NCBI GenBank assembly: GCA_902523065.1
Contig: CABYXZ010000001.1
Coordinates: 263,540 to 327,539, forward strand
Direction of reading: 5' to 3'
DNA length: 64,000 bases
Source: an uncultured Marinoscillum sp.
Lineage (GTDB): Bacteria > Bacteroidota > Bacteroidia > Cytophagales > MED-G16
Each line of letters opens with the position of its first letter. Position 1 is the first letter of the stretch. This document shows positions 33,871 through 41,717 of this stretch, in pieces. A program made the position numbers and the translations under genes. The notes beneath the pieces were generated by a model. It was not told the DNA's origin, did no database searches, and was given only the letters and a program-made list of their open reading frames with translations.

Positions 33871-34653
33871 TTATTTGCTTACAGCAGGATCTGGTCCCTC
33901 ATAATACACAACCTCATAAATAACTGAACTCGTAAACTTTCCATTTGGCAACAAATCATTGATTTCCTGTAATCCTTCTGGCCAATTTGCACCTTCTGGG
34001 AAAGAATTTAGTGCACCGCTTAGAGTAGTAAAATGATCAACAGTTGCAACGCTCCAAGAAAATCCGTTACCAGTTGGAGATACAACTCTGTGTACTTCCC
34101 ATCCGGCCCATGTAGAATTTTCATCATTTATGTAATTTTCTATGAATGGTTTCCAAACCTCACTCTGTAATCTAATAAAAGCATTTACATCCGATGGGTT
34201 AGCAGTATTGATAACAATATAGTTACCAACTTTCCCACTAAGGGAAGTTGCTGGGCTAGTGTACGCAGTTCCAAGTACTCCATTAGACTTTACAGGTTTT
34301 AAGCCAAAGGTACTTCCAGATCCCCATGGGGAATTATCCATATCTTCAAACTCCTCAAAACCATTATAGAAGAAAAAGTTATGTCCATCAGAAGTATTTC
34401 CACTTACTTTTCTCAATAAACCCCAATGTTTCATCCTTCCGTCATCAATTGCATTCCTGACAAATTTTCTGTAAACTTTATCCTCATTACTTAAGAAGTT
34501 AGCAACGTCACCCGGATCAATTTGTCTAAATTGCCACGTGCCAATTTCATGGTCTACTCCAGTATCACTATCTTGAGCAAATGACCCAAAAGATATTAGA
34601 GTTATTAAAAAAATGTTAAGTATATATTTCATAATTTGTAATTTAATTTTCAA
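33871..34653 (-). CDS. secreted protein, paralog E of a five-gene array (two alpha+beta repeats; unknown family)
   Basis: Signal peptide '...ISFGSFAQD'. Two repeat halves carry 'DDGRMKHWGLLRKV' and 'NSTWAGWEVHRVV', matching paralog D ('GKKMQWSIWKT', 'AQTFWGFTRVE'). An alternative start at 34632 would remove the overlap with D. Confidence 0.6.
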   Translation of the reverse strand: MKIKLQIMKYILNIFLITLISFGSFAQDSDTGVDHEIGTWQFRQIDPGDVANFLSNEDKVYRKFVRNAIDDGRMKHWGLLRKVSGNTSDGHNFFFYNGFEEFEDMDNSPWGSGSTFGLKPVKSNGVLGTAYTSPATSLSGKVGNYIVINTANPSDVNAFIRLQSEVWKPFIENYINDENSTWAGWEVHRVVSPTGNGFSWSVATVDHFTTLSGALNSFPEGANWPEGLQEINDLLPNGKFTSSVIYEVVYYEGPDPAVSK

Positions 34654-35398
34654 ATAATATTAATTCCATTGAACCAGTATTTGGAATCATTTCTCGTGAC
34701 TGCAAACCAAGTTCAACTAGTTTCTGAGTTTTAAAATCATTTTCAACAGTATTCTCGTTCTCTCCATCAATATTAAAACATATATGAGAAAATTGAGTAT
34801 AAGCATTCTCAGATCTCTCCTCTACCCTGGTAAATCCCCAAAAAGTTTGAGCACCTATATCTACGGCTTTTTGAAACTGATCTTTAAAAACTTCTTTCTC
34901 AAAAGATTCATAATCATCATTTTTCTCTTGCATGAGAGAAATTGAACAAACAATACCAGGTGTAGGATTAAAATCTGCTGCTGCTGCCTGAGCCTGTATT
35001 GAAAGTGTATATGACCTAGTAGCCTCCCTTGGGTCAAATGAACTGTCAATCATCTTCTGGGCTTTTTTATTTGAAATTCCGTGTACCTTCTGTGCAATAG
35101 CAACATAATCAACATCTTGACTTGCATCATATTGCTCTTGAGATTCATAAGAATTAAAAATCATGTAATCAGCAGGTTTTGAATCTTCAGTAAGTGGATC
35201 TCCTGGAAGAGTTTTCCATATTGACCACTGCATCTTTTTTCCTTGACTAATTATTTCTGCATGAATTTTAGACCAAAACTCCTCAATCTCTAAATAGTCA
35301 GCATCAGAACCTTCTTTTAAAACCACAGCGTCCATTACACTTATCTGCTGTGCATTTACAATAAAAGGTGTAAATAATATTAATAATAGTTTTTTCAT
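34643..35398 (-). CDS. secreted protein, paralog D of the five-gene array
   Basis: Signal peptide '...FIVNAQQ'. Same two-half architecture as E. Confidence 0.6.
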   Translation of the reverse strand: MKKLLLILFTPFIVNAQQISVMDAVVLKEGSDADYLEIEEFWSKIHAEIISQGKKMQWSIWKTLPGDPLTEDSKPADYMIFNSYESQEQYDASQDVDYVAIAQKVHGISNKKAQKMIDSSFDPREATRSYTLSIQAQAAAADFNPTPGIVCSISLMQEKNDDYESFEKEVFKDQFQKAVDIGAQTFWGFTRVEERSENAYTQFSHICFNIDGENENTVENDFKTQKLVELGLQSREMIPNTGSMELILFEN

Positions 35399-35411
35399 AT
35401 TTAATTATAAT

Positions 35412-36104
35412 TTAATTCCACTTTTTAACAAGTCTTCTTGCAAATGATCTTACCATCTCGGTCTCACCCCTTTCTGACCTGAACTTTCTCCAAGCATCAG
35501 ACTCGGCTTTTGACCTGTTACCTCCTTCAACAAGGTCTTTAAAATCCTGCTGAGCAGATAAAACATAATGCGTAACACCATCTTCTCTGCCGGATACTAT
35601 TGTACCAAGTTCTACAAAGTTATCTGGAGGAAACTTATCTCTTAGATTATTCCATCCTTCAACAAATTTATCAGACTCAGACACATTCATAACCCACAGT
35701 TGATGAATTGGAGCACTGTCGTCATCTGCATTGTATGACTTAATTGCTCTTCCAGCAAGCGAGGCAACTGGGTCAATAAATTGATTTAATTTTTCAATAA
35801 ATAAAAACCAATCTGAATCCTGCACTGTCGAATAAGCTTTATTCATACTACCCATATCACCATAAATATTTAGTGTATGTGTTGCCTCAAAACCATCACC
35901 AGCAAACATAACTTCATATAATGCAACAGTTGTTCCTTCGGTTACATTACCTGCTTGAGACAGATAATCATTACATATATTAAATACAGTTGATACATCC
36001 TGAGGTTTAACTTTCCACTCGTAAACACTCCATGCATTTTGAGCTATGGAATAAGATGAGATAGAAAAAAATAGAATTATTAGTTTAACTTTTTTTATCA
36101 TCAT
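35412..36104 (-). CDS. secreted protein, paralog C of the five-gene array
   Basis: Signal peptide '...YSIAQNA'. First half 'ALYEVMFAGDGFEATHTLNIYGD', second half 'ELGTIVSGREDGVTHYVLSAQ'. Shares the 'ATHxL' and 'G(G/R)E(Q/D)GxTHxV' motifs with paralog A. Confidence 0.6.
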   Translation of the reverse strand: MMIKKVKLIILFFSISSYSIAQNAWSVYEWKVKPQDVSTVFNICNDYLSQAGNVTEGTTVALYEVMFAGDGFEATHTLNIYGDMGSMNKAYSTVQDSDWFLFIEKLNQFIDPVASLAGRAIKSYNADDDSAPIHQLWVMNVSESDKFVEGWNNLRDKFPPDNFVELGTIVSGREDGVTHYVLSAQQDFKDLVEGGNRSKAESDAWRKFRSERGETEMVRSFARRLVKKWN

Positions 36105-36119
36105 ATTTTAATTTAAATA

Positions 36120-36893
36120 TTATTGTAAAGCAATTGGCGGAGAACTTAATTCTGGTAAGAACCTTACAAGCTCTGTCCTAGCACCCCACATTTGTATTGT
36201 TCCTCTTAAAAGATCTAGATCAGTCTCCCATGAATCTTCGCCAAACATCTCTTGGTAAGTATCACCAACCTTACTCATAACTTTATAAAAATTACCGTAT
36301 TCCTCCATGGTTCTAAAAGCAAACGATACCTGTACATGACCTTGTTCACCTCCACCTCTTGATCTCCAAACATTAACTGTTAAATCTTCTCCTGATTCTT
36401 TAATAGCAGAAGCAAGATTACCTCTGAATTTCCAGAAGTGGTTTCGATCAGATCCTGGGGCCATTACATAGTGGATATTTAAACCAACTACCTTTTCTCC
36501 CGGCTTACTTTGATCGTGACTTGCATCATCGACTCTCTCAAAGTATTCTCTACCACTTGAAGATGCAATCATAGGATCAACATTTTTCATCCAATAATTA
36601 AACTCTTCTGATGTAACAGAATTATTATCAAAATCAGCCCACGTTGGACCAACACCAGCTCTTGCAAGCTGACCTTGTCTCGGACCAGATATTACTTCAA
36701 ATGTGTAAAGCTGGAAAGTTCCTGGGCCTTGGTTATATTTTTTAGTTTTATCTCCTACAGCCTCCCTAAGTTCACTACCCTTACCTTTCACAGGGTCATG
36801 ATAATCAACCCATACAACCATTGACTGAGAAATACCAGCCTGTACTACAAATAAAAAAAGTATTAGAAAAATATTTTTCATATCACTGTACAT
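36120..36893 (-). CDS. secreted protein, paralog B of the five-gene array
   Basis: Signal peptide '...VQAGISQS'. 'RSRGGGEQGHVQVSFAF' aligns with the GGEQG motif of A and C. An alternative ATG lies at 36881. Confidence 0.6.
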   Translation of the reverse strand: MYSDMKNIFLILFLFVVQAGISQSMVVWVDYHDPVKGKGSELREAVGDKTKKYNQGPGTFQLYTFEVISGPRQGQLARAGVGPTWADFDNNSVTSEEFNYWMKNVDPMIASSSGREYFERVDDASHDQSKPGEKVVGLNIHYVMAPGSDRNHFWKFRGNLASAIKESGEDLTVNVWRSRGGGEQGHVQVSFAFRTMEEYGNFYKVMSKVGDTYQEMFGEDSWETDLDLLRGTIQMWGARTELVRFLPELSSPPIALQ

Positions 36894-37587
36894 TATAAAA
36901 TTGAAGTGGTCTACCAGAAGTAGTTTGTATTACGTCTGTGTATGGTCTAGTAGCAGCTGCAAATTCTTGGAATGCTTTTGTTTGTATAAACTCATTCCTA
37001 CCAGATAACCATTCAGCCATTGAAGGGGCTCTTACTATTACAACATGTGTAATACCTTGCTCACCTCCTGCAATTATTTCGTGTAGCTCAATTGTTCCAG
37101 TAGACTCTCTCTTATCGAAAGCAGCTTTCATTTTAGTGAAAGCACCAGCATATGATAAAGGATCTTGTACATTAATACCGTATAAAACTGAGAATCGTAG
37201 ATTAAAATCTCCTGGATCTGCAATAAGAGACTGACCCATATAATTTGATATCTCTGTTACGTTATTAATATATGTATTAACAACAGGAAATAATTCCATG
37301 AACTTAGCAGAGGCAAATATTCCTTGGTTTGCCTCAAGTTTAGCAGGATCATCAGAGAACCAGCAAAGCTGATGAGTAGCACTATTAGTTGAGTTAGTGT
37401 TTACGTACTCAAAAACCGCATGTGGTGTCATTTGTTTTCCTAAGGCAGAATTCATAAACTGATCCCACACTGTTACAAAAGCTGGAGCATTGTCCACTTC
37501 TACATCAGAGCACTGCCATGTAATTTGTTGTGCATTGGACTGAAACGCAAAAAATAGCATTATCAACCCTAAAAAGGTATTTTTCAT
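36883..37587 (-). CDS. secreted protein, paralog A of the five-gene array
   Basis: Signal peptide '...FQSNAQQ'. 'NSATHQLCWFSD' in half 1 and 'HEIIAGGEQGITHVVIVRAPSMAEW' in half 2, a NIPSNAP/Dabb-like pattern. Confidence 0.6.
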   Translation of the reverse strand: MKNTFLGLIMLFFAFQSNAQQITWQCSDVEVDNAPAFVTVWDQFMNSALGKQMTPHAVFEYVNTNSTNSATHQLCWFSDDPAKLEANQGIFASAKFMELFPVVNTYINNVTEISNYMGQSLIADPGDFNLRFSVLYGINVQDPLSYAGAFTKMKAAFDKRESTGTIELHEIIAGGEQGITHVVIVRAPSMAEWLSGRNEFIQTKAFQEFAAATRPYTDVIQTTSGRPLQFYNVQ

Positions 37588-37785: not shown

Positions 37786-38367
37786 TTAAATGTCTTCTTC
37801 GTTAGCTCTAGCAAAATTTAAATAATAAATTATCTCCTTTGTCCTTCTAAAATAGTCCTCAAAAATATCAGGTCTGTATACTTCTGGCTTTCCTGTATTG
37901 AGCCTAGTAATTTTTGGATCAAAGAATGCGTACGTATAAAAAGATGCTAAAACTATTTCATCAACTGGCAATATTTTATCATAAGCATATATGTACTTAA
38001 TTAGTGTATCTTTTTTTTCAGGATAGATATTAATCATTTGCCAGAAGGCAAGTTTAATATCCAGATTACTTAAACTTATTCCAACATCATACAGAGTGTA
38101 TTCATCTTTATAAATTTTATCTCTGAATATGCTGTCATTTAAAAGTTTTATTCCTTCTTCAGAAAAATAAATTTCTTTCTCACCTGAAGAAACTCCCTTC
38201 TCTGTTAAGTTTTTAATCCACTCTTCATTTAATTTTTGATTTTTTTCAATATCCGATAAGAAATTTATGAGATTTAATGAGTCAGTTAAATCAATAGTTA
38301 GCGTATCCTCAGAATTTGAGATAAATGGGATAAAATTTATGTAGAAAAGTAAAACCTTAAGATTCAT
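37786..38367 (-). CDS. hypothetical exported protein (last gene of the fibre cluster)
   Basis: 193 aa with a hydrophobic N-terminus. Only 3 nt downstream of the fibre gene. No recognisable motif. Confidence 0.4.
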   Translation of the reverse strand: MNLKVLLFYINFIPFISNSEDTLTIDLTDSLNLINFLSDIEKNQKLNEEWIKNLTEKGVSSGEKEIYFSEEGIKLLNDSIFRDKIYKDEYTLYDVGISLSNLDIKLAFWQMINIYPEKKDTLIKYIYAYDKILPVDEIVLASFYTYAFFDPKITRLNTGKPEVYRPDIFEDYFRRTKEIIYYLNFARANEEDI

Positions 38368-38370
38368 TTT

Positions 38371-40518
38371 CTAAGGATTCACCTTCAATAGGTTTTTTTC
38401 AACAAGTTCGTTTACAGTTTTCTCAAACTCATTTAATTTATCTTCAAATTTTTTCTGATTGGACTCAAATCTTTTAAAGACATTCACCCAGTCTCCGTTG
38501 TGAACTCCTATAACTGTGTTTATAAGTTTTGGACCATCATTAAGGTTAGTATCCCAAGATCTTCCAACAGCAAACCTAAAATTTTCAGCTACCATCTCTT
38601 TTGGATTAATTGCTTTTCCATAACCAGAAATTTCTCCGTGAGCAACAATGTAATCACCTGACGAAACTGGACCGATAACCTTTACCGGAACTTGCCCCAT
38701 AAACGCAACATTATTTCCAAGATGACTTTTTCCCTCCTCTGGAATATTACCTAGGACAATGGGTTTATGGGAAACTACCATTACCTGTTCTAGGTCTTTT
38801 AAGTCTTTAGTTATTTTTGCTCCCTTAACTGCAACTATATCTCCTGCAGTCAAATATTCTAGATGATCTTCTCTCTCAAGCCACTCCGCATAATCACCGT
38901 TACCCGAAGCGTATGAAACTCCAAGTATATTATACTCATAAAGAAAATTAGAAGCTGCTGCATTAGCTCCAATAATTGCCTGAAGTGGATCAACACCTAC
39001 AAAGCTTGCAATTAGGTCAAGCATATACACGTCATTAAGAAAAGTTCTATCTCTCCACTCTGAAAGGTTTTCAGCTTGAATTGTTCCCATTCTCCTTCCC
39101 TCTTTGTCCTCAAACCTTATATACTCATTACTATTGTTGAGAGAATTATTAACATTTTCAACAATTATTCTAATATCTGGAACATCAGGCAATCCTGGAA
39201 TATTAATTTGTGGTATATCTGGGGTAACATCTCCTCCCTCAAATAATGTTTCTCCTGGATATATGGTTTGACGACCTATTAACCTAAAACCGTTGGTGAC
39301 TGTAAATGTTCCTAAATCAAGAACCTTAACTCTCAATCCTGGTAAATTTACTTCTGGTGATTGAATTTTTGGCACCTCAATTTTTGGTATATCAACTTTT
39401 GGCATAACCTTATTAATTTCAGATGTTATCCTATTAGTAATATCCTGAGCTGCAGCAACAATCAAAGCATCAGGTGAAGCTTTTACAATATCCAAAGGGG
39501 AAATATCTGTTGGTTTTTTCTTTCCATCAATTAGATCTCTTAGAAGTTGAAGAAGTTCTTGATATGGCTCAGTTGTTGGCATTGGAGCACTAACGAAACC
39601 ACTTCCATTCCAGGCACTATGCGTTCGTCCTAATTTAATTAATATTCCATCTCCTTCGCCCCCGTCTTTATTATTTAATGTTGCAAGAAATTTATCATTA
39701 GAACCCTCGATAGATAATGTATTCTCAAGCTTAAGATCTCCACCTAAATTAAGATCCCCTTGAAATGAGGCGTCTCCGCTAACATCTAGAGAACCAGTTA
39801 AAGTTGTGCTACTACTATCAAGAACAGATAAGGATTTATTTAATGTTGTTATACCACCTACCTTTAGGTCACCACTTAATTCTGAAAGAGATTGATTAGC
39901 TACTGTTAATTTTGAATTAAGTAATGTATTATCCTCAACCTTTAGTTCACCTAATAATTTAGTATTTCCACCAACATCTAGGTCATTATTAACATCAAGG
40001 TTTCCTTTTATAAGTGAATTTCCATCTACACTGAGCTCCTGATTAATATTGAGGTTTCCCTTTAGAAGTGAATTTCCATCAACTGTTAGATTTCCAGATG
40101 CTATGATATCCCTGTGGTATGCGTATGGTATAAAGAGTAATTCCTGATCACTAAGGTCTGAGTAAGTCCCATCCAAATTTATTTCAACCTTTAAATTTTT
40201 GGTAGAACCGTCCCAGTAAATTTCTGTGAATCTTCCAGCAACTGAATTTCCTTTTCCAATAACCAAATTTATCATTCCATACTCATCTGTTTTGGTTGTA
40301 TGGATTTCCTGATACTCCGTGTTACCAGAATTACCATAAATGGTAAATCTTACATTAATTTCTTTATTTGGCAGTATGTTACCTGTAACATCTATCCCAG
40401 GAATTTCTTCTGGTTCAGGGTCAATTATGACTGCCTGATAATTTAAACCATCAGTCTGAGCAAAGACTTGAAGGTTAATTAATAAAATAAAAGAATGTAG
40501 AGTTATTAAATTTTTCAT
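38371..40518 (-). CDS. cell-surface fibre protein: N-terminal 'NYQAV' Ig-like domain, beta-helical repeat stalk, Pro-rich linker, C-terminal tailspike-like (Peptidase_G2/IMC-type) domain
   Basis: Signal peptide. 'GLNYQAVIIDP...INVRFTIYG...EYQEIHTTKTDEYGMINLVIGKG' matches the N-domain of Bacteroidota 'tail fiber domain' proteins. Periodic 'GNxLLxGxLxV' repeats span aa 140-272. 'GDYAEWLE...VAFMGQVPVKVIGPVSSGDYIV' resembles the phage IMC autoproteolysis domain. Confidence 0.65.
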   Translation of the reverse strand: MKNLITLHSFILLINLQVFAQTDGLNYQAVIIDPEPEEIPGIDVTGNILPNKEINVRFTIYGNSGNTEYQEIHTTKTDEYGMINLVIGKGNSVAGRFTEIYWDGSTKNLKVEINLDGTYSDLSDQELLFIPYAYHRDIIASGNLTVDGNSLLKGNLNINQELSVDGNSLIKGNLDVNNDLDVGGNTKLLGELKVEDNTLLNSKLTVANQSLSELSGDLKVGGITTLNKSLSVLDSSSTTLTGSLDVSGDASFQGDLNLGGDLKLENTLSIEGSNDKFLATLNNKDGGEGDGILIKLGRTHSAWNGSGFVSAPMPTTEPYQELLQLLRDLIDGKKKPTDISPLDIVKASPDALIVAAAQDITNRITSEINKVMPKVDIPKIEVPKIQSPEVNLPGLRVKVLDLGTFTVTNGFRLIGRQTIYPGETLFEGGDVTPDIPQINIPGLPDVPDIRIIVENVNNSLNNSNEYIRFEDKEGRRMGTIQAENLSEWRDRTFLNDVYMLDLIASFVGVDPLQAIIGANAAASNFLYEYNILGVSYASGNGDYAEWLEREDHLEYLTAGDIVAVKGAKITKDLKDLEQVMVVSHKPIVLGNIPEEGKSHLGNNVAFMGQVPVKVIGPVSSGDYIVAHGEISGYGKAINPKEMVAENFRFAVGRSWDTNLNDGPKLINTVIGVHNGDWVNVFKRFESNQKKFEDKLNEFEKTVNELVEKNLLKVNP

Positions 40519-40521
40519 TTT

Positions 40522-41223
40522 CTATTGAGTATCGATATTTTTCTTTTTAAATCCTTTTATATCAACCAAAACTCCTACCCCAATTGAATGATTTCTAATA
40601 CTCAACTGCTCAAGACTGCTTGGAGAGTCATCCTTCATCACATTACTTGTTGAGTATAAATATTGTACATAGACTCTTGCCTTTTCCGACATTGGATATG
40701 TTATGCCAGCACCTCCTTTAAAGAAGAAGGAAAATGGATCAAATTCTTCAACATTTTCTAATGAATATACTTGATTATTTATCATCTGAGTACCTCTAAG
40801 ATAATAGTCTGAAGATGCACCTCCAGTAAGGTAAAGAGTAAAATCACGCATCTTTATCAGGTCATAATTAATTGCTAGATTAAGACCCAAGTAGTCAAGA
40901 TCCCATTCGTATATATTATACAGTATGTCATTGCTCCCCTGGGCACCATAATTATTGTAGTCAAGAGAGACTGAAAAACTAAACCTGTTTGGTTGGAGAA
41001 CACTTTTATTACTGAAATACCAGTCGTGATTGTAACCTAATCTAAAATAATTTTTTGACATAGGCTGCAGGTTATCAAGGTTAACCCCTGAGCTATTGGT
41101 ATAGTCAAAACTAGAAATAGATTTTCCATATTCAACATAGATTGCATCCTGTAAAATTTTAATCTTTTGCCCGCTTACTTGGAAAATGGAAATTAAAAAA
41201 AAAATTAGTGTAAGTCTCTTCAT
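40522..41223 (-). CDS. outer-membrane beta-barrel protein
   Basis: Signal peptide '...IFQVSGQ', alternating beta-strand pattern, many Tyr/Gly strand termini. Confidence 0.55.
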   Translation of the reverse strand: MKRLTLIFFLISIFQVSGQKIKILQDAIYVEYGKSISSFDYTNSSGVNLDNLQPMSKNYFRLGYNHDWYFSNKSVLQPNRFSFSVSLDYNNYGAQGSNDILYNIYEWDLDYLGLNLAINYDLIKMRDFTLYLTGGASSDYYLRGTQMINNQVYSLENVEEFDPFSFFFKGGAGITYPMSEKARVYVQYLYSTSNVMKDDSPSSLEQLSIRNHSIGVGVLVDIKGFKKKNIDTQ

Positions 41224-41717
41224 TACTTTCTCTTTATAATTTTTGTTTGAAAGTACTTCTCTTTACTCTCCAGTCTAAGGATAAATTGAGATTCTGGAAT
41301 TGAATTTAGGTAGATTTTATGTTGAGCTTTTATTGGAAGTTCGTCATCAAAAACTAACTTTCCCATCAGATCATAAATCTTAACTTTTATCTTGTTTTTA
41401 ATTTCCTCAGAGAAGACTACATCTAAAGCTTCCGTAAATGGATTAGGAGAGATTTTAACCTTTAAGAGCTTATCAAGAATTGAATTTTTTTCAATAAATT
41501 TAGGAGGCTGTATAAAGCCTTGCCTAGCATTTACCATCATTGTATTTATTTTTCCAATTGGCCCTTGCTGACCAATTGAGTACTGAACTCTGTAAGATTT
41601 GTCTAATGTTTTAAGGGTTTTTGATCCTCCAGAAACATTTAAAACAGACCTATAATCTCTTGAATTTGAATGAAAGGAAATAAAAATTAGAATTATAAAA
41701 AAAATCCTAGGCATCAA
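41223..41717 (-). CDS. small secreted protein with T9SS type-A C-terminal sorting domain
   Basis: C-terminus 'VKISPNPFTEALDVVF...IKVKIYDLMGKLVFDD...KIYLNSIPESQFILRLES' fits the Por/T9SS CTD pattern. N-part carries 'YSIGQ...QGFIQP'. Confidence 0.65.
   Translation of the reverse strand: MMPRIFFIILIFISFHSNSRDYRSVLNVSGGSKTLKTLDKSYRVQYSIGQQGPIGKINTMMVNARQGFIQPPKFIEKNSILDKLLKVKISPNPFTEALDVVFSEEIKNKIKVKIYDLMGKLVFDDELPIKAQHKIYLNSIPESQFILRLESKEKYFQTKIIKRK

What the first reader, a model, noticed from the sequence alone, without database searches (positions are those of the whole stretch)
37786..41717. Tightly coupled four-gene surface-fibre cluster: T9SS-CTD protein, OM barrel, 715-aa beta-helical fibre and an unknown protein
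The four minus-strand genes are joined by a 1-nt overlap and two 3-nt gaps. The first is a 164-aa protein with a T9SS type-A C-terminal sorting domain. The second is a 233-aa predicted OM beta-barrel. The third is a 715-aa secreted fibre with an N-terminal 'NYQAV...' domain, about 130 aa of 'GNxLLxGxLxV' beta-helix repeats (39703-40101) and a Pro-rich '(D/E)(I/V)PKI' linker. The fourth is a 193-aa exported protein of unknown fold. The fibre itself lacks a T9SS CTD, so its export and anchoring may depend on the co-encoded barrel and the CTD-bearing partner. That would be a dedicated assembly pathway for a surface appendage or adhesin, and I do not know of one being characterised.
Basis: partly seen in the sequence, partly recalled or inferred. 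Interest (0 to 1): 0.55.

Follow-up and report, generated by a model that had tools for sequence, protein, structure and literature searches.

The report
Conserved Bacteroidota surface-fibre operon with helpers
The four genes are a real operon, conserved across the phylum Bacteroidota, that encodes a phage-like trimeric surface fibre and three helper proteins; it matters because the helpers are the first concrete candidates for how fibres of this kind are attached to the cell and folded.

Summary

**The fibre.** The 715-aa protein is a relative of the Bdellovibrio "MAT" chimeric fibres. It has:
- a signal peptide;
- a MAT-type N-terminal domain;
- a beta-helical repeat stalk of variable length;
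- a variable middle region with a Pro-rich linker;
- a very conserved C-terminal module related to the Peptidase_G2 intramolecular chaperone of phage fibres.

**Synteny.** In 124 related loci the operon splits into two modules.
- The 164-aa protein is a ~50-aa mini-module fused to a bona fide T9SS type-A CTD. It and the small OM barrel follow the fibre's N-terminal domain, whatever the tip. The mini protein is present in 56/57 loci of G2-type fibres and 32/33 loci of non-G2 fibres. The barrel is present in 27/57 and 33/33.
- The 193-aa protein follows only the G2-type C-terminus (67/68 against 0/8). It has a confident helical model with no match in PDB or BFVD and no family.

Distance-matrix correlations support both pairings in one of two subsets.

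**Most likely mechanism (inferred).** The mini-CTD protein, with the barrel where present, attaches the fibre base to the cell surface and possibly carries it through the T9SS. The 193-aa protein is probably a periplasmic chaperone for the C-terminal folding module.

No paper in the library describes this. I rate it a new variant of a known kind, interest about 0.6.

The parts
41223..41717 (-). Gene 1: 'mini-CTD' protein of 164 aa (163 aa if the ATG at 41714 is the start). Signal peptide, then a ~50-aa mini-module, a linker and a T9SS type-A C-terminal sorting domain.
   Evidence: ORF. PF18962 scores 35.7 bits (cut-off 27) and TIGR04183 34.6 bits (cut-off 23). All 35 aligned family members carry PF18962. 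Found upstream of the fibre in 56/57 G2-type and 32/33 non-G2 loci.
41502..41660 (-). Mini-module of gene 1, residues ~20-72. Family motif: GG...(L)x(W/Y)(S/T)(I/L)G(E/Q)...(Q/E)GF(x)QP. The window copy reads 'SGGSKTL...VQYSIGQQGPIG...ARQGFIQPP'. Proposed partner of the fibre's N-terminal domain.
   Evidence: Alignment A2; no family hit for this part. An HMM of this part alone finds the neighbour of non-G2 fibres too. Its pairwise distances correlate with those of the fibre N-domain (rho 0.62, Mantel p<=0.0005) and not with the C-domain (0.09, n.s.) in 29 single-fibre loci. Coordinates.
41229..41453 (-). T9SS type-A C-terminal sorting domain of gene 1, residues 89-163.
   Evidence: coordinates.
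40522..41223 (-). Gene 2: small outer-membrane beta-barrel of 233 aa with a signal peptide. About 8 strands by inspection. The stretches that I assign to extracellular loops 1-3 on a standard OMP topology are conserved.
   Evidence: PF13505 scores 32.9 bits (cut-off 28.7) and PF13568 29.6 bits (cut-off 27). 17/29 members hit PF13505. Alignment A9. The best PDB sequence hit is the 8-stranded NspA at E=1, not significant. Present next to 27/57 G2-type and 33/33 non-G2 fibres.
38371..40518 (-). Gene 3: 715-aa MAT-like fibre.
   Evidence: ORF. 343 homologues, with stalk length varying from 662 to 1078 aa. No CTD.
40102..40455 (-). Fibre N-terminal domain, residues 22-139, directly after the signal peptide (40456-40518). 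MAT-type base domain.
   Evidence: NCBIfam Bdello_MAT_N gives E 9.4e-5 for the window copy. 44/45 family members hit it, best 7.9e-15, though the window copy scores 22.3 bits, well under the 60-bit cut-off. 14,633 representative clusters carry this domain, and among the 150 listed it sits at or near the N-terminus in all but one.
39703..40101 (-). Beta-helical repeat stalk, residues 140-272.
   Evidence: 6/12/18-residue periodicity, z 5.6-6.5. Whole repeats are gained or lost between relatives. The weak Bactofilin and PHROG tail-fibre hits come from these repeats.
38896..39702 (-). Variable middle region, residues 273-541, including the Pro-rich linker (39343-39405). It would be the distal tip of the mature fibre if the C-terminal module is cleaved off.
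   Evidence: Least conserved part among relatives and between tandem paralogues (median 42% identity, against 52-54% for the two ends). DNA repeat at 39364-39404.
38374..38895 (-). Conserved C-terminal module, residues 542-715. Peptidase_G2-like intramolecular chaperone with a D542-Y-A-E545 motif (38884-38895) and a terminal coiled coil (38383-38487).
   Evidence: PF11962 scores 22.4 bits for the window copy (cut-off 25). 42/44 members hit it, best 6.9e-9. Many columns are invariant. 32% identity over 130 aligned columns with the C-terminus of a virion protein of phage PA5oct, which shares D-x-A-E and VPVKVIGP..GD..VA. The structure model was poor, so there is no fold evidence.
37786..38367 (-). 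Gene 4: 193-aa exported helical protein ('U193'), the cognate partner of the G2-type C-terminal module.
   Evidence: Directly downstream of the fibre in 67/68 testable G2-type loci and 0/8 non-G2 loci. AF2 pLDDT 87.7, pTM 0.76. No fold match in PDB (best E 2.6) or BFVD (best E 0.78). No family, and every named homologue is called 'hypothetical' or 'uncharacterized'. Its distances correlate with the fibre C-domain (rho 0.34, p<=0.0005) and not with the N-domain (0.10, n.s.).

Best explanation
This is an operon for a MAT-type trimeric cell-surface fibre of Bacteroidota. It is built as two functional modules.

**Shown**
- The fibre has a Sec-type signal peptide, a MAT-type N-terminal base domain and a beta-helical stalk of variable length. 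A variable middle region follows, then a highly conserved C-terminal module related to the Peptidase_G2 intramolecular chaperones of phage fibres.
- The mini-CTD protein and the small barrel co-occur with the N-terminal domain whatever the tip type.
- The 193-aa protein co-occurs only with the G2-type C-terminus.

**Inferred mechanism**
1. All four proteins enter the periplasm through Sec.
2. The C-terminal module nucleates trimerisation of the fibre. The periplasmic 193-aa protein helps as a dedicated chaperone or cap, playing the part of a phage tail-fibre assembly protein encoded just downstream of its fibre. The module is then probably removed by autocleavage before D542.
3. The ~50-residue mini-module binds the fibre's N-terminal domain. 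Its type-A CTD takes it through the T9SS.
4. After CTD removal the mini-module is fixed to the cell surface. It acts as the tether for the fibre base and possibly carries the CTD-less fibre out with it.
5. In Flavobacteriia and marine Cytophagales, the ~8-stranded barrel with its conserved loops adds a membrane dock.
6. The exposed variable region mediates adhesion to an unknown ligand.
For: **ORFs and domain calls:**

**Homology of the fibre ends, at family level**
- 44/45 N-domains hit Bdello_MAT_N.
- 42/44 C-domains hit Peptidase_G2.
- The C-domain resembles the C-terminus of a phage PA5oct virion protein that lies next to a tail-fibre gene.

**Synteny**
- In 77 genome loci from Flavobacteriaceae, Saprospiraceae, Chitinophagaceae, Spirosoma, Cytophagales and one Ignavibacteria MAG, the order is mini-CTD, (barrel), fibre x1-2, U193.
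- Median gaps are 1-26 nt.
- Independent gene calls in Constantimarinum furrinae agree.

**Dissection with 47 loci of non-G2 fibres**

| Neighbour | G2-type fibres | non-G2 fibres |
|---|---|---|
| mini-CTD | 56/57 | 32/33 |
| barrel | 27/57 | 33/33 |
| U193 | 67/68 | 0/8 |

**Mantel tests in 29 single-fibre loci**
- mini-module against N-domain: rho 0.62, p<=0.0005.
- mini-module against C-domain: rho 0.09, not significant.
- U193 against C-domain: rho 0.34, p<=0.0005.
- U193 against N-domain: rho 0.10, not significant.

**Further points**
- Two tandem cassettes each carry their own mini-CTD gene in L064, L109 and L110.
- Bdellovibrio MAT fibres are on the cell surface. Their N-domain is expected to bind an unidentified surface element (PMC10769870).
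Against: - No physical interaction was tested. Multimer modelling was not available.
- The window copy scores below the curated cut-offs of both Bdello_MAT_N (22.3 against 60 bits) and Peptidase_G2 (22.4 against 25 bits).
- The monomer model of the fibre's C-terminal half was poor (pLDDT 44). Its fold search found nothing significant. Profile searches of PDB sequences found no solved relative. The chaperone and cleavage assignment therefore rests on sequence motifs only.
- In the barrel-containing subset (26 loci) all distance correlations are alike (0.39-0.59). Only the N-domain against C-domain control is lower (0.25). The barrel cannot be assigned to a partner that way, and the mini-module to N-domain pairing is not specific there.
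- The '0/8' for U193 is a small sample from one N-domain subclade.
- As I recall it, cleavage of the phi29 G2 protein needs ATP, which the periplasm lacks.
- How the fibre crosses the outer membrane is unknown. Bdellovibrio displays MAT fibres yet lies outside the phylum to which the T9SS is reported confined (PMC7906972 abstract).
- The barrel is missing next to half of the G2-type fibres.
Confidence: 0.6

Rival explanations
1. Co-regulated but physically independent proteins. The mini-CTD protein and the barrel are ordinary envelope proteins that share a promoter with an adhesin gene. The fibre reaches the surface by some other route, as in Bdellovibrio, and binds something else.
For: No interaction was tested. 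Bdellovibrio displays MAT fibres although it lies outside the phylum to which the T9SS is reported confined. The barrel is dispensable in half of the G2-type loci. A two-component system often lies upstream, which suggests a regulon.
Against: The mini-CTD gene stays adjacent at 97-98% across phylum-level divergence and across fibre tip types. Each duplicated cassette has its own copy. The mini-module co-varies with the N-domain and not the C-domain. A ~50-residue mature product has little scope for a function of its own.
Confidence: 0.15
2. The C-terminal module is not a cleaved chaperone. It is the working, conserved tip of the fibre, and U193 is its binding partner: a second anchor, a periplasmic receptor, or an inhibitor or immunity-like protein.
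For: The C-terminal module is the most conserved part of the fibre, which is unusual for an adhesin tip but expected for a self-interaction surface. It scores below the G2 cut-off in the window copy. No fold evidence exists. U193 is strictly linked to it.
Against: 42/44 members hit the G2 autoproteolytic chaperone family. The D-x-A-E motif is nearly invariant across the 44 aligned members and is shared with a phage virion protein. High conservation is also what one expects of an intramolecular chaperone. A terminal coiled coil suits a trimerisation nucleus.
Confidence: 0.15
3. Remnant of a prophage or a tailocin: a phage tail fibre with its assembly chaperone, not a cellular appendage.
For: Phage-like architecture, PHROG tail-fibre hits to the repeats, similarity to a phage PA5oct virion protein, and a chaperone-like gene downstream.
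Against: No gene recurring among the neighbours of 124 loci, and none in the annotated C. furrinae locus, is a phage structural, lysis or integration gene. All four proteins have signal peptides, and one has a T9SS CTD. Flanking genes are housekeeping: aldehyde dehydrogenase and M16 peptidases. Window composition is even.
Confidence: 0.03
4. A split autotransporter-like system: the neighbouring barrel is the export pore for the fibre.
For: Barrel and fibre genes are separated by 3 nt. One source names a homologous fibre 'autotransporter outer membrane beta-barrel domain-containing protein'. 2/29 barrels give weak Autotransporter hits.
Against: The barrel is about 210 mature residues with about 8 strands by inspection. 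That is too small for a pore by established knowledge of OMPs. It is absent from 30/57 G2-type loci. The fibre has no autotransporter or YadA-anchor domain.
Confidence: 0.05

Closest known systems
Bdellovibrio bacteriovorus MAT (mosaic adhesive trimer) fibres (Caulton et al. 2024, PMC10769870)
   Same: Signal peptide, then a conserved beta-rich N-terminal domain of ~130 aa, a long trimeric beta-helical stalk and exchangeable C-terminal ends, some of which are autoproteolytic chaperones. The N-domains here hit the NCBIfam model built on that family (44/45). The N-domain family also carries many different tips.
   Different: The host is Bacteroidota. The C-terminal chaperone is G2-like, not S74. 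The window copy scores far below the family cut-off. Here the fibre gene sits in a conserved operon with a T9SS mini-CTD protein, a small barrel and a 193-aa partner. The MAT paper names no accessory genes and says the surface element bound by the N-domain is unknown.
Phage tail fibres and spikes with C-terminal intramolecular chaperones (Pfam Peptidase_G2, type example the phi29 pre-neck appendage gp12; Peptidase_S74)
   Same: A C-terminal conserved module after a beta-helical stalk. The family hits PF11962. D-x-A-E and VPVKV..GD motifs are shared with the C-terminus of a phage PA5oct virion protein.
   Different: It is a cellular, Sec-exported protein. There is no significant sequence match to any solved structure, phi29 gp12 included. 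Cleavage is unproven. As I recall it, phi29 gp12 processing needs ATP, which the periplasm lacks. A separate partner gene (U193) accompanies the module.
Phage tail-fibre assembly chaperones encoded downstream of the fibre gene (Tfa and gp38 types; 'transient chaperone caps', PMC10579305)
   Same: The gene lies directly downstream of the fibre gene. Its presence follows the type of the fibre's C-terminus and it co-varies with it.
   Different: No sequence or fold similarity to any viral or solved protein. U193 has a signal peptide and so would act in the periplasm.
T9SS cargo with a cognate adjacent outer-membrane partner (SprB with SprF; type-B CTD proteins with PorP/SprF-like barrels).
   Same: A surface adhesin system of Bacteroidota in which a small OM barrel gene sits next to the T9SS-dependent gene.
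   Different: The CTD is type A (TIGR04183). The barrel hits OMP_b-brl, with no PorP/SprF hit listed. The adhesin itself has no CTD, which sits instead on a ~50-residue adaptor.

Membership tests
T9SS type-A CTD cargo (TIGR04183 / PF18962) | The C-terminal sorting domain scores above the curated cut-off. | tested here: met
   TIGR04183 34.6 bits (cut-off 23) and PF18962 35.7 bits (cut-off 27), residues 89-163. 35/35 family members hit PF18962.
T9SS type-A CTD cargo (TIGR04183 / PF18962) | N-terminal Sec signal peptide. | tested here: inconclusive
   A hydrophobic N-terminus 'MMPRIFFIILIFISFHS' is visible, and relatives have a conserved '...AQ' end. No signal-peptide predictor was available.
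T9SS type-A CTD cargo (TIGR04183 / PF18962) | Secretion depends on the T9SS; the CTD is removed and the protein is attached to the surface. | not testable with these tools
   Needs T9SS mutants and proteomics.
Small outer-membrane beta-barrels (Pfam OMP_b-brl, PF13505) | Score above the gathering threshold. | tested here: met
   32.9 bits against 28.7. 17/29 relatives hit at E<=0.01.
Small outer-membrane beta-barrels (Pfam OMP_b-brl, PF13505) | Eight-stranded barrel. | tested here: inconclusive
   Eight amphipathic segments by eye in alignment A9. The only PDB hit is NspA at E=1.
MAT fibre family (NCBIfam NF053851, Bdello_MAT_N) | The N-terminal domain matches the family model above its cut-off of 60 bits. 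| tested here: not met
   The window copy scores 22.3 bits, E 9.4e-5. 44/45 relatives match at E<=0.1, best 7.9e-15. Homology is supported, but subfamily membership is not.
MAT fibre family (NCBIfam NF053851, Bdello_MAT_N) | The conserved ~130-aa domain follows the signal peptide directly, then a repetitive beta-helical stalk and an exchangeable C-terminal end. | tested here: met
   Domain at residues 22-139. In 149 of the 150 best representatives the match lies at or near the N-terminus. Stalk periodicity. Both G2 and non-G2 tips occur.
MAT fibre family (NCBIfam NF053851, Bdello_MAT_N) | Trimeric and exposed on the cell surface. | not testable with these tools
   Only monomer prediction was available, and that model was poor.
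Peptidase_G2 intramolecular chaperone (PF11962) | Score above the gathering threshold of 25 bits. | tested here: not met
   19.5 bits for the whole protein and 22.4 bits for the C-terminal 299 aa. 42/44 relatives match at E<=0.1, best 6.9e-9. Only model positions 45-96 of 228 align.
Peptidase_G2 intramolecular chaperone (PF11962) | An Asp/Glu pair at the cleavage site. Residue roles are from my recollection of the phi29 gp12 literature. | tested here: inconclusive
   D542-Y-A-E545 is invariant in the 10- and 17-sequence alignments and nearly invariant among 44 members. It aligns with D-L-A-E of phage PA5oct gp359. Equivalence to the gp12 catalytic residues could not be checked.
Peptidase_G2 intramolecular chaperone (PF11962) | Autoproteolytic release of the C-terminal module after trimerisation. 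| not testable with these tools
   Needs protein chemistry.
PorP/SprF-type T9SS partner barrels | Match to the PorP/SprF family model. | tested here: not met
   The Pfam scans of the barrel and of 29 relatives list only OMP_b-brl families plus sporadic weak hits.
Autotransporters / trimeric autotransporter adhesins | A beta-domain or YadA-type anchor within the fibre protein. | tested here: not met
   No such hit in the fibre or in five distant homologues.
Bactofilin (PF04519) | Score above the gathering threshold; a cytoplasmic polymer. | tested here: not met
   22.4 bits against 27.9. The hit lies on the beta-helical repeats of a protein that has a signal peptide.

The most novel reading that the evidence does not exclude
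The ~50-residue mini-module with its type-A CTD is a secretion adaptor and tether. It binds the fibre's N-terminal domain in the periplasm and carries the folded, CTD-less trimer through the T9SS translocon. After CTD removal it remains as the surface anchor of the fibre. That would be piggyback secretion through the T9SS, and I found no paper in the library describing it. It would also identify the long-sought partner of the MAT-type N-terminal domain, for a domain family with more than 14,000 sequence clusters.
Probability: 0.25. Interest if true: 0.8.

Novelty: new variant of a known kind. Interest (0 to 1): 0.6.

Why it matters
MAT-type fibres were described only in 2024, in a predator. 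That paper states that what holds their N-terminal domain on the cell is unknown.

- **The domain is very common.** It heads a family of 14,633 representative clusters.
- **In Bacteroidota the fibre gene has fixed neighbours.** It almost always follows a tiny T9SS-sorted protein and often a small barrel.
- **One tip class adds a fourth gene.** That class always brings a protein with no detectable relative in the libraries searched, by sequence or by fold.
- **This yields specific candidates.** They can be tested genetically for attachment, export and folding of these fibres. Cultured marine and soil bacteria carry the operon.
- **It also suggests a way for proteins without a CTD to use the T9SS.**
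- **Possible ecological relevance.** Stalk length varies among near-identical marine relatives (662-721 aa). This hints at selection on reach or on the surface presented to phages and grazers.

Tried and rejected
- **PDB sequence searches.** Searches with the fibre, and with profiles of its N-domain, its C-domain and the barrel, found nothing significant.
- **AF2 model of fibre residues 271-715.** It came out at pLDDT 44. The fold search on it gave no match with E<=0.001. I treat this as uninformative, not as evidence against a chaperone fold.
- **Fold searches of the good U193 model.** Searches against PDB and BFVD found nothing.
- **Profile comparison of the mini-CTD family with the N-domain family.** Probability was 84%, but the aligned stretch starts in the signal peptides, the rest shows little similarity and identity is only 18%. 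I disregard it.
- **Mirror-tree test for the barrel.** All correlations were about equal in the Flavobacteriaceae-dominated subset, so it was uninformative.
- **Promoter and terminator scans.** Chance level.
- **First metagenome scan.** I repeated it with a narrower alignment.
- **Readings rejected:**
  - Bactofilin and YdcK hits, which are artefacts of the repeats;
  - Baculo_E25, a weak hit;
  - the 'autotransporter' name given by one source;
  - prophage or tailocin, because no phage genes were seen in the neighbourhoods.
- **Literature.** Searches for T9SS piggyback secretion, for T9SS-linked chaperone fibres and for the MAT N-domain anchor found no relevant paper. One search failed on a term that was too short. 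I found no open paper on the G2 cleavage chemistry.

Full report
**1. Observation**

One search lists four minus-strand ORFs at exactly the stated coordinates:
- 41223-41717 (164 aa);
- 40522-41223 (233 aa);
- 38371-40518 (715 aa);
- 37786-38367 (193 aa).

They are joined by a 1-nt overlap and two 3-nt gaps. The TTG start of the first ORF is followed at once by an ATG. Upstream lie an aldehyde dehydrogenase and two M16 peptidases. Downstream, after a 199-nt gap, lie five secreted proteins with no family.

G+C content is even across the window at about 26-35%. The closest relatives come from marine Flammeovirgaceae and Marinoscillum MAGs.

- The 164-aa protein passes the curated cut-offs of the T9SS type-A sorting domain.
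- The 233-aa protein passes those of OMP_b-brl.
- The fibre has no CTD.
- The stalk repeats show 6/12/18-residue periodicity with z about 6.
- The Pro-rich linker appears as a 15-nt DNA repeat.

**2. What the fibre is**

Homologues number 343 in the first search. Near relatives are 662-721 aa long and differ by whole repeats. Flavobacteriaceae versions are 1013-1078 aa, with the same two ends and a much longer stalk.

*N-terminal domain.* It gives a weak hit to NCBIfam Bdello_MAT_N. Across 45 diverse relatives, 44 hit that model, the best at 7.9e-15. The window copy, at 22.3 bits, is well below the 60-bit cut-off.

*C-terminal region.* The last ~175 residues are the most conserved part. 42 of 44 relatives hit Pfam Peptidase_G2, the intramolecular-chaperone and autoproteolysis domain named after the phi29 pre-neck appendage protein. 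The best E-value is 6.9e-9. The window copy scores 22.4 bits against a cut-off of 25.

- The motif G-D542-Y-A-E545-W-L-E-R is invariant or nearly so.
- The module is 32% identical, over 130 aligned columns, to the C-terminus of a virion structural protein of Pseudomonas phage PA5oct. That protein is encoded next to a long-tail-fibre gene and shares D-x-A-E and VPVKVIGP..GD..VA.

*Fit to the MAT family.* The published description of Bdellovibrio MAT fibres is: signal peptide, conserved beta-rich ~130-aa N-domain, trimeric beta-helix, then an S74 chaperone or another tip. The architecture here fits it. The same paper states that the surface element bound by the N-domain is not known (PMC10769870).

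*Size of the N-domain family.* A search of 1.84 billion representatives with the N-domain alone found 14,633 clusters. In 149 of the 150 listed, the match lies at or near the N-terminus of a protein. Of those 150, 118 are longer than 450 aa (the longest 2778 aa). Among these, 65 carry the DYAEW-type motif. The rest end in other domains.

The fibre is therefore a Bacteroidota relative of the MAT fibres with a G2-like rather than an S74 C-terminal module.

**3. Synteny**

A scan of one genome per species returned 77 loci. They come from Flavobacteriaceae, Saprospiraceae, Chitinophagaceae, Spirosoma, Cytophagales and one Ignavibacteria MAG.

I called ORFs, clustered them and labelled them with HMMs. 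The common order is:

mini-CTD protein, then the barrel (in some lineages), then one or two fibre genes, then the 193-aa protein.

Median intergenic gaps are 1-26 nt. Independent gene calls and Pfam labels in the complete genome of Constantimarinum furrinae give the same picture, with a HisKA_3 kinase, a GerE-type response regulator and a large HYR/CTD protein in front. A LuxR-type regulator lies upstream in 17 of 52 loci.

**4. Dissection into two modules**

The first set was found through C-terminal motifs, so it is G2-positive by construction. I therefore fetched a second set through the N-domain of a subclade whose members end in other tips. HMM labelling gave these counts:

| Neighbour of the fibre | G2-type fibres | non-G2 fibres |
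|---|---|---|
| mini-CTD protein upstream | 56/57 | 32/33 |
| barrel upstream | 27/57 | 33/33 (complete copies E 1e-66 to 1e-90) |
| 193-aa protein downstream | 67/68 | 0/8 |

The mini-CTD protein and the barrel therefore go with the N-terminal domain. The 193-aa protein goes with the G2-type C-terminus.

A second line of evidence comes from Mantel tests on pairwise distances in 29 single-fibre loci:

| Pair | rho | p |
|---|---|---|
| mini-module and N-domain | 0.62 | <=0.0005 |
| mini-module and C-domain | 0.09 | n.s. |
| 193-aa protein and C-domain | 0.34 | <=0.0005 |
| 193-aa protein and N-domain | 0.10 | n.s. |
| N-domain and C-domain | 0.10 | n.s. |

Caveats:
- The distances are raw and close to saturation.
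- In the 26 barrel-containing loci all correlations are alike (0.39-0.59). Only the N-domain against C-domain control is lower (0.25). That test says nothing about the barrel and does not single out the mini-module to N-domain pair there.
- The 0/8 is a small sample.

**5. The three helpers**

*Mini-CTD protein.* After the signal peptide come only about 50 residues, with the family motif GG...(L)xW(T/S)(L/I)G(E/Q)...(Q/E)GF(x)QP. A short linker and the CTD follow. All 35 aligned members carry the CTD. The mini-module matches no family. Duplicated cassettes each keep their own copy (L064, L109, L110).

*Barrel.* It is about 210 mature residues. By eye it has eight amphipathic strands. On a standard OMP topology, which I assume here, the conserved stretches fall in extracellular loops 1-3. 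That fits a dock better than a pore.

*193-aa protein.*
- It has a signal peptide and a confident, mostly helical AF2 model (pLDDT 87.7, pTM 0.76).
- The model has no match in PDB (best E 2.6) or BFVD (best E 0.78).
- It matches no family, and every homologue that carries a name is called hypothetical or uncharacterized.

**6. Mechanism**

*Shown:* the architecture, the operon, the two-module linkage, and the homologies at family level.

*Inferred:*
- All four proteins are exported by Sec.
- The C-terminal module nucleates trimerisation and is probably cut off before D542.
- The 193-aa protein acts in the periplasm as a dedicated chaperone or cap for that module. This is the role that phage tail-fibre assembly proteins, encoded just downstream of their fibre genes, play in phages.
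- The mini-module binds the N-domain and is taken to the surface by the T9SS through its CTD. It stays there as the tether of the fibre base, with the barrel as an extra dock in some lineages.
- Whether the fibre rides out with the mini-CTD protein or crosses the outer membrane another way is open.
- The ligand of the exposed variable region is unknown. That region is the least conserved part between tandem paralogues (median 42% identity, against 52-54% for the two ends).

**7. What did not work**

- The monomer model of residues 271-715 was poor (pLDDT 44). Its fold search was empty.
- PDB sequence searches were empty.
- Promoter and terminator scans were at chance level.
- No open paper in the library links the T9SS with such fibres, describes piggyback secretion through the T9SS, or identifies the MAT anchor.

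**8. Verdict**

The fibre belongs to a known kind: MAT-like, phage-derived chimeric fibres. The conserved helper genes and their two-module logic are, as far as I could find, undescribed. I rate this a new variant of a known kind, interest 0.6.

Noticed in passing
window 33871-37587 (minus strand): Five tandem genes for 230-260-aa proteins with signal-peptide-like N-termini and no Pfam family. They are barely related to each other: the best pair is 23% identical at E 2.5e-8. They follow the cluster only in the closest relatives (L002, L075), so they are not part of the conserved operon.
   Followed up: partly
L126:1-6766 (Constantimarinum furrinae), and likewise L008, L009, L013, L015, L016, L018, L019, L025, L031, L034, L036, L057, L061, L063, L077: A histidine kinase (HisKA_3 in the one locus with Pfam labels, L126) and a LuxR/GerE-type response regulator often lie just upstream of the mini-CTD gene (regulator in 17/52 loci, kinase in 11/52). 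In many Flavobacteriaceae a 1100-1500-aa HYR-domain T9SS protein lies between them and the mini-CTD gene. This suggests regulated expression. The window itself has no such genes nearby.
   Followed up: partly
L003, L004, L008, L009, L013, L015-L019, L021, L022, L025, L026, L029, L031, L033, L036, L037, L041: Most Flavobacteriaceae loci carry two tandem fibre genes that share one mini-CTD gene, one barrel gene and one U193 gene. The two fibres are about 45% identical overall (measured for L008) and differ most in the region just before the C-terminal module.
   Followed up: partly
window 39703-40101 and proteins P0001-P0114: Close relatives of the fibre (76-97% identity) come in discrete lengths (662, 670, 683, 697, 712, 715 and 721 aa) that differ by whole stalk repeats. 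This is a stalk-length polymorphism within marine populations.
   Followed up: no
protein P0348 (916 aa): The core of the N-terminal domain (query residues ~43-131) occurs six times in tandem inside one protein that ends in a FlgD_ig-type domain. The fibre base domain is therefore also used as an internal repeat elsewhere.
   Followed up: no
proteins P0400-P0454, e.g. P0402: Many non-G2 fibres with this N-domain end in '...VRAVRAF'. The one such protein scanned (P0402) has a weak Lcl_C-like end (23.2 bits, below the 34.9-bit cut-off) and MopE-type metal-binding repeats. A group of giant ones (1782-2778 aa) ends in '...W.V.RALF'. These are distinct tip classes that were not examined for partner genes of their own.
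   Followed up: no
L015 (CAZBWO010000019.1): A locus with the full Flavobacteriaceae-type cluster comes from a MAG labelled 'uncultured Alteromonas sp.'. It is probably a binning error rather than transfer to Proteobacteria.
   Followed up: no
L020 (JACPPD010000006.1, Ignavibacteria MAG): The mini-CTD, fibre, U193 core also occurs in a groundwater Ignavibacteria MAG, outside Bacteroidota proper.
   Followed up: no
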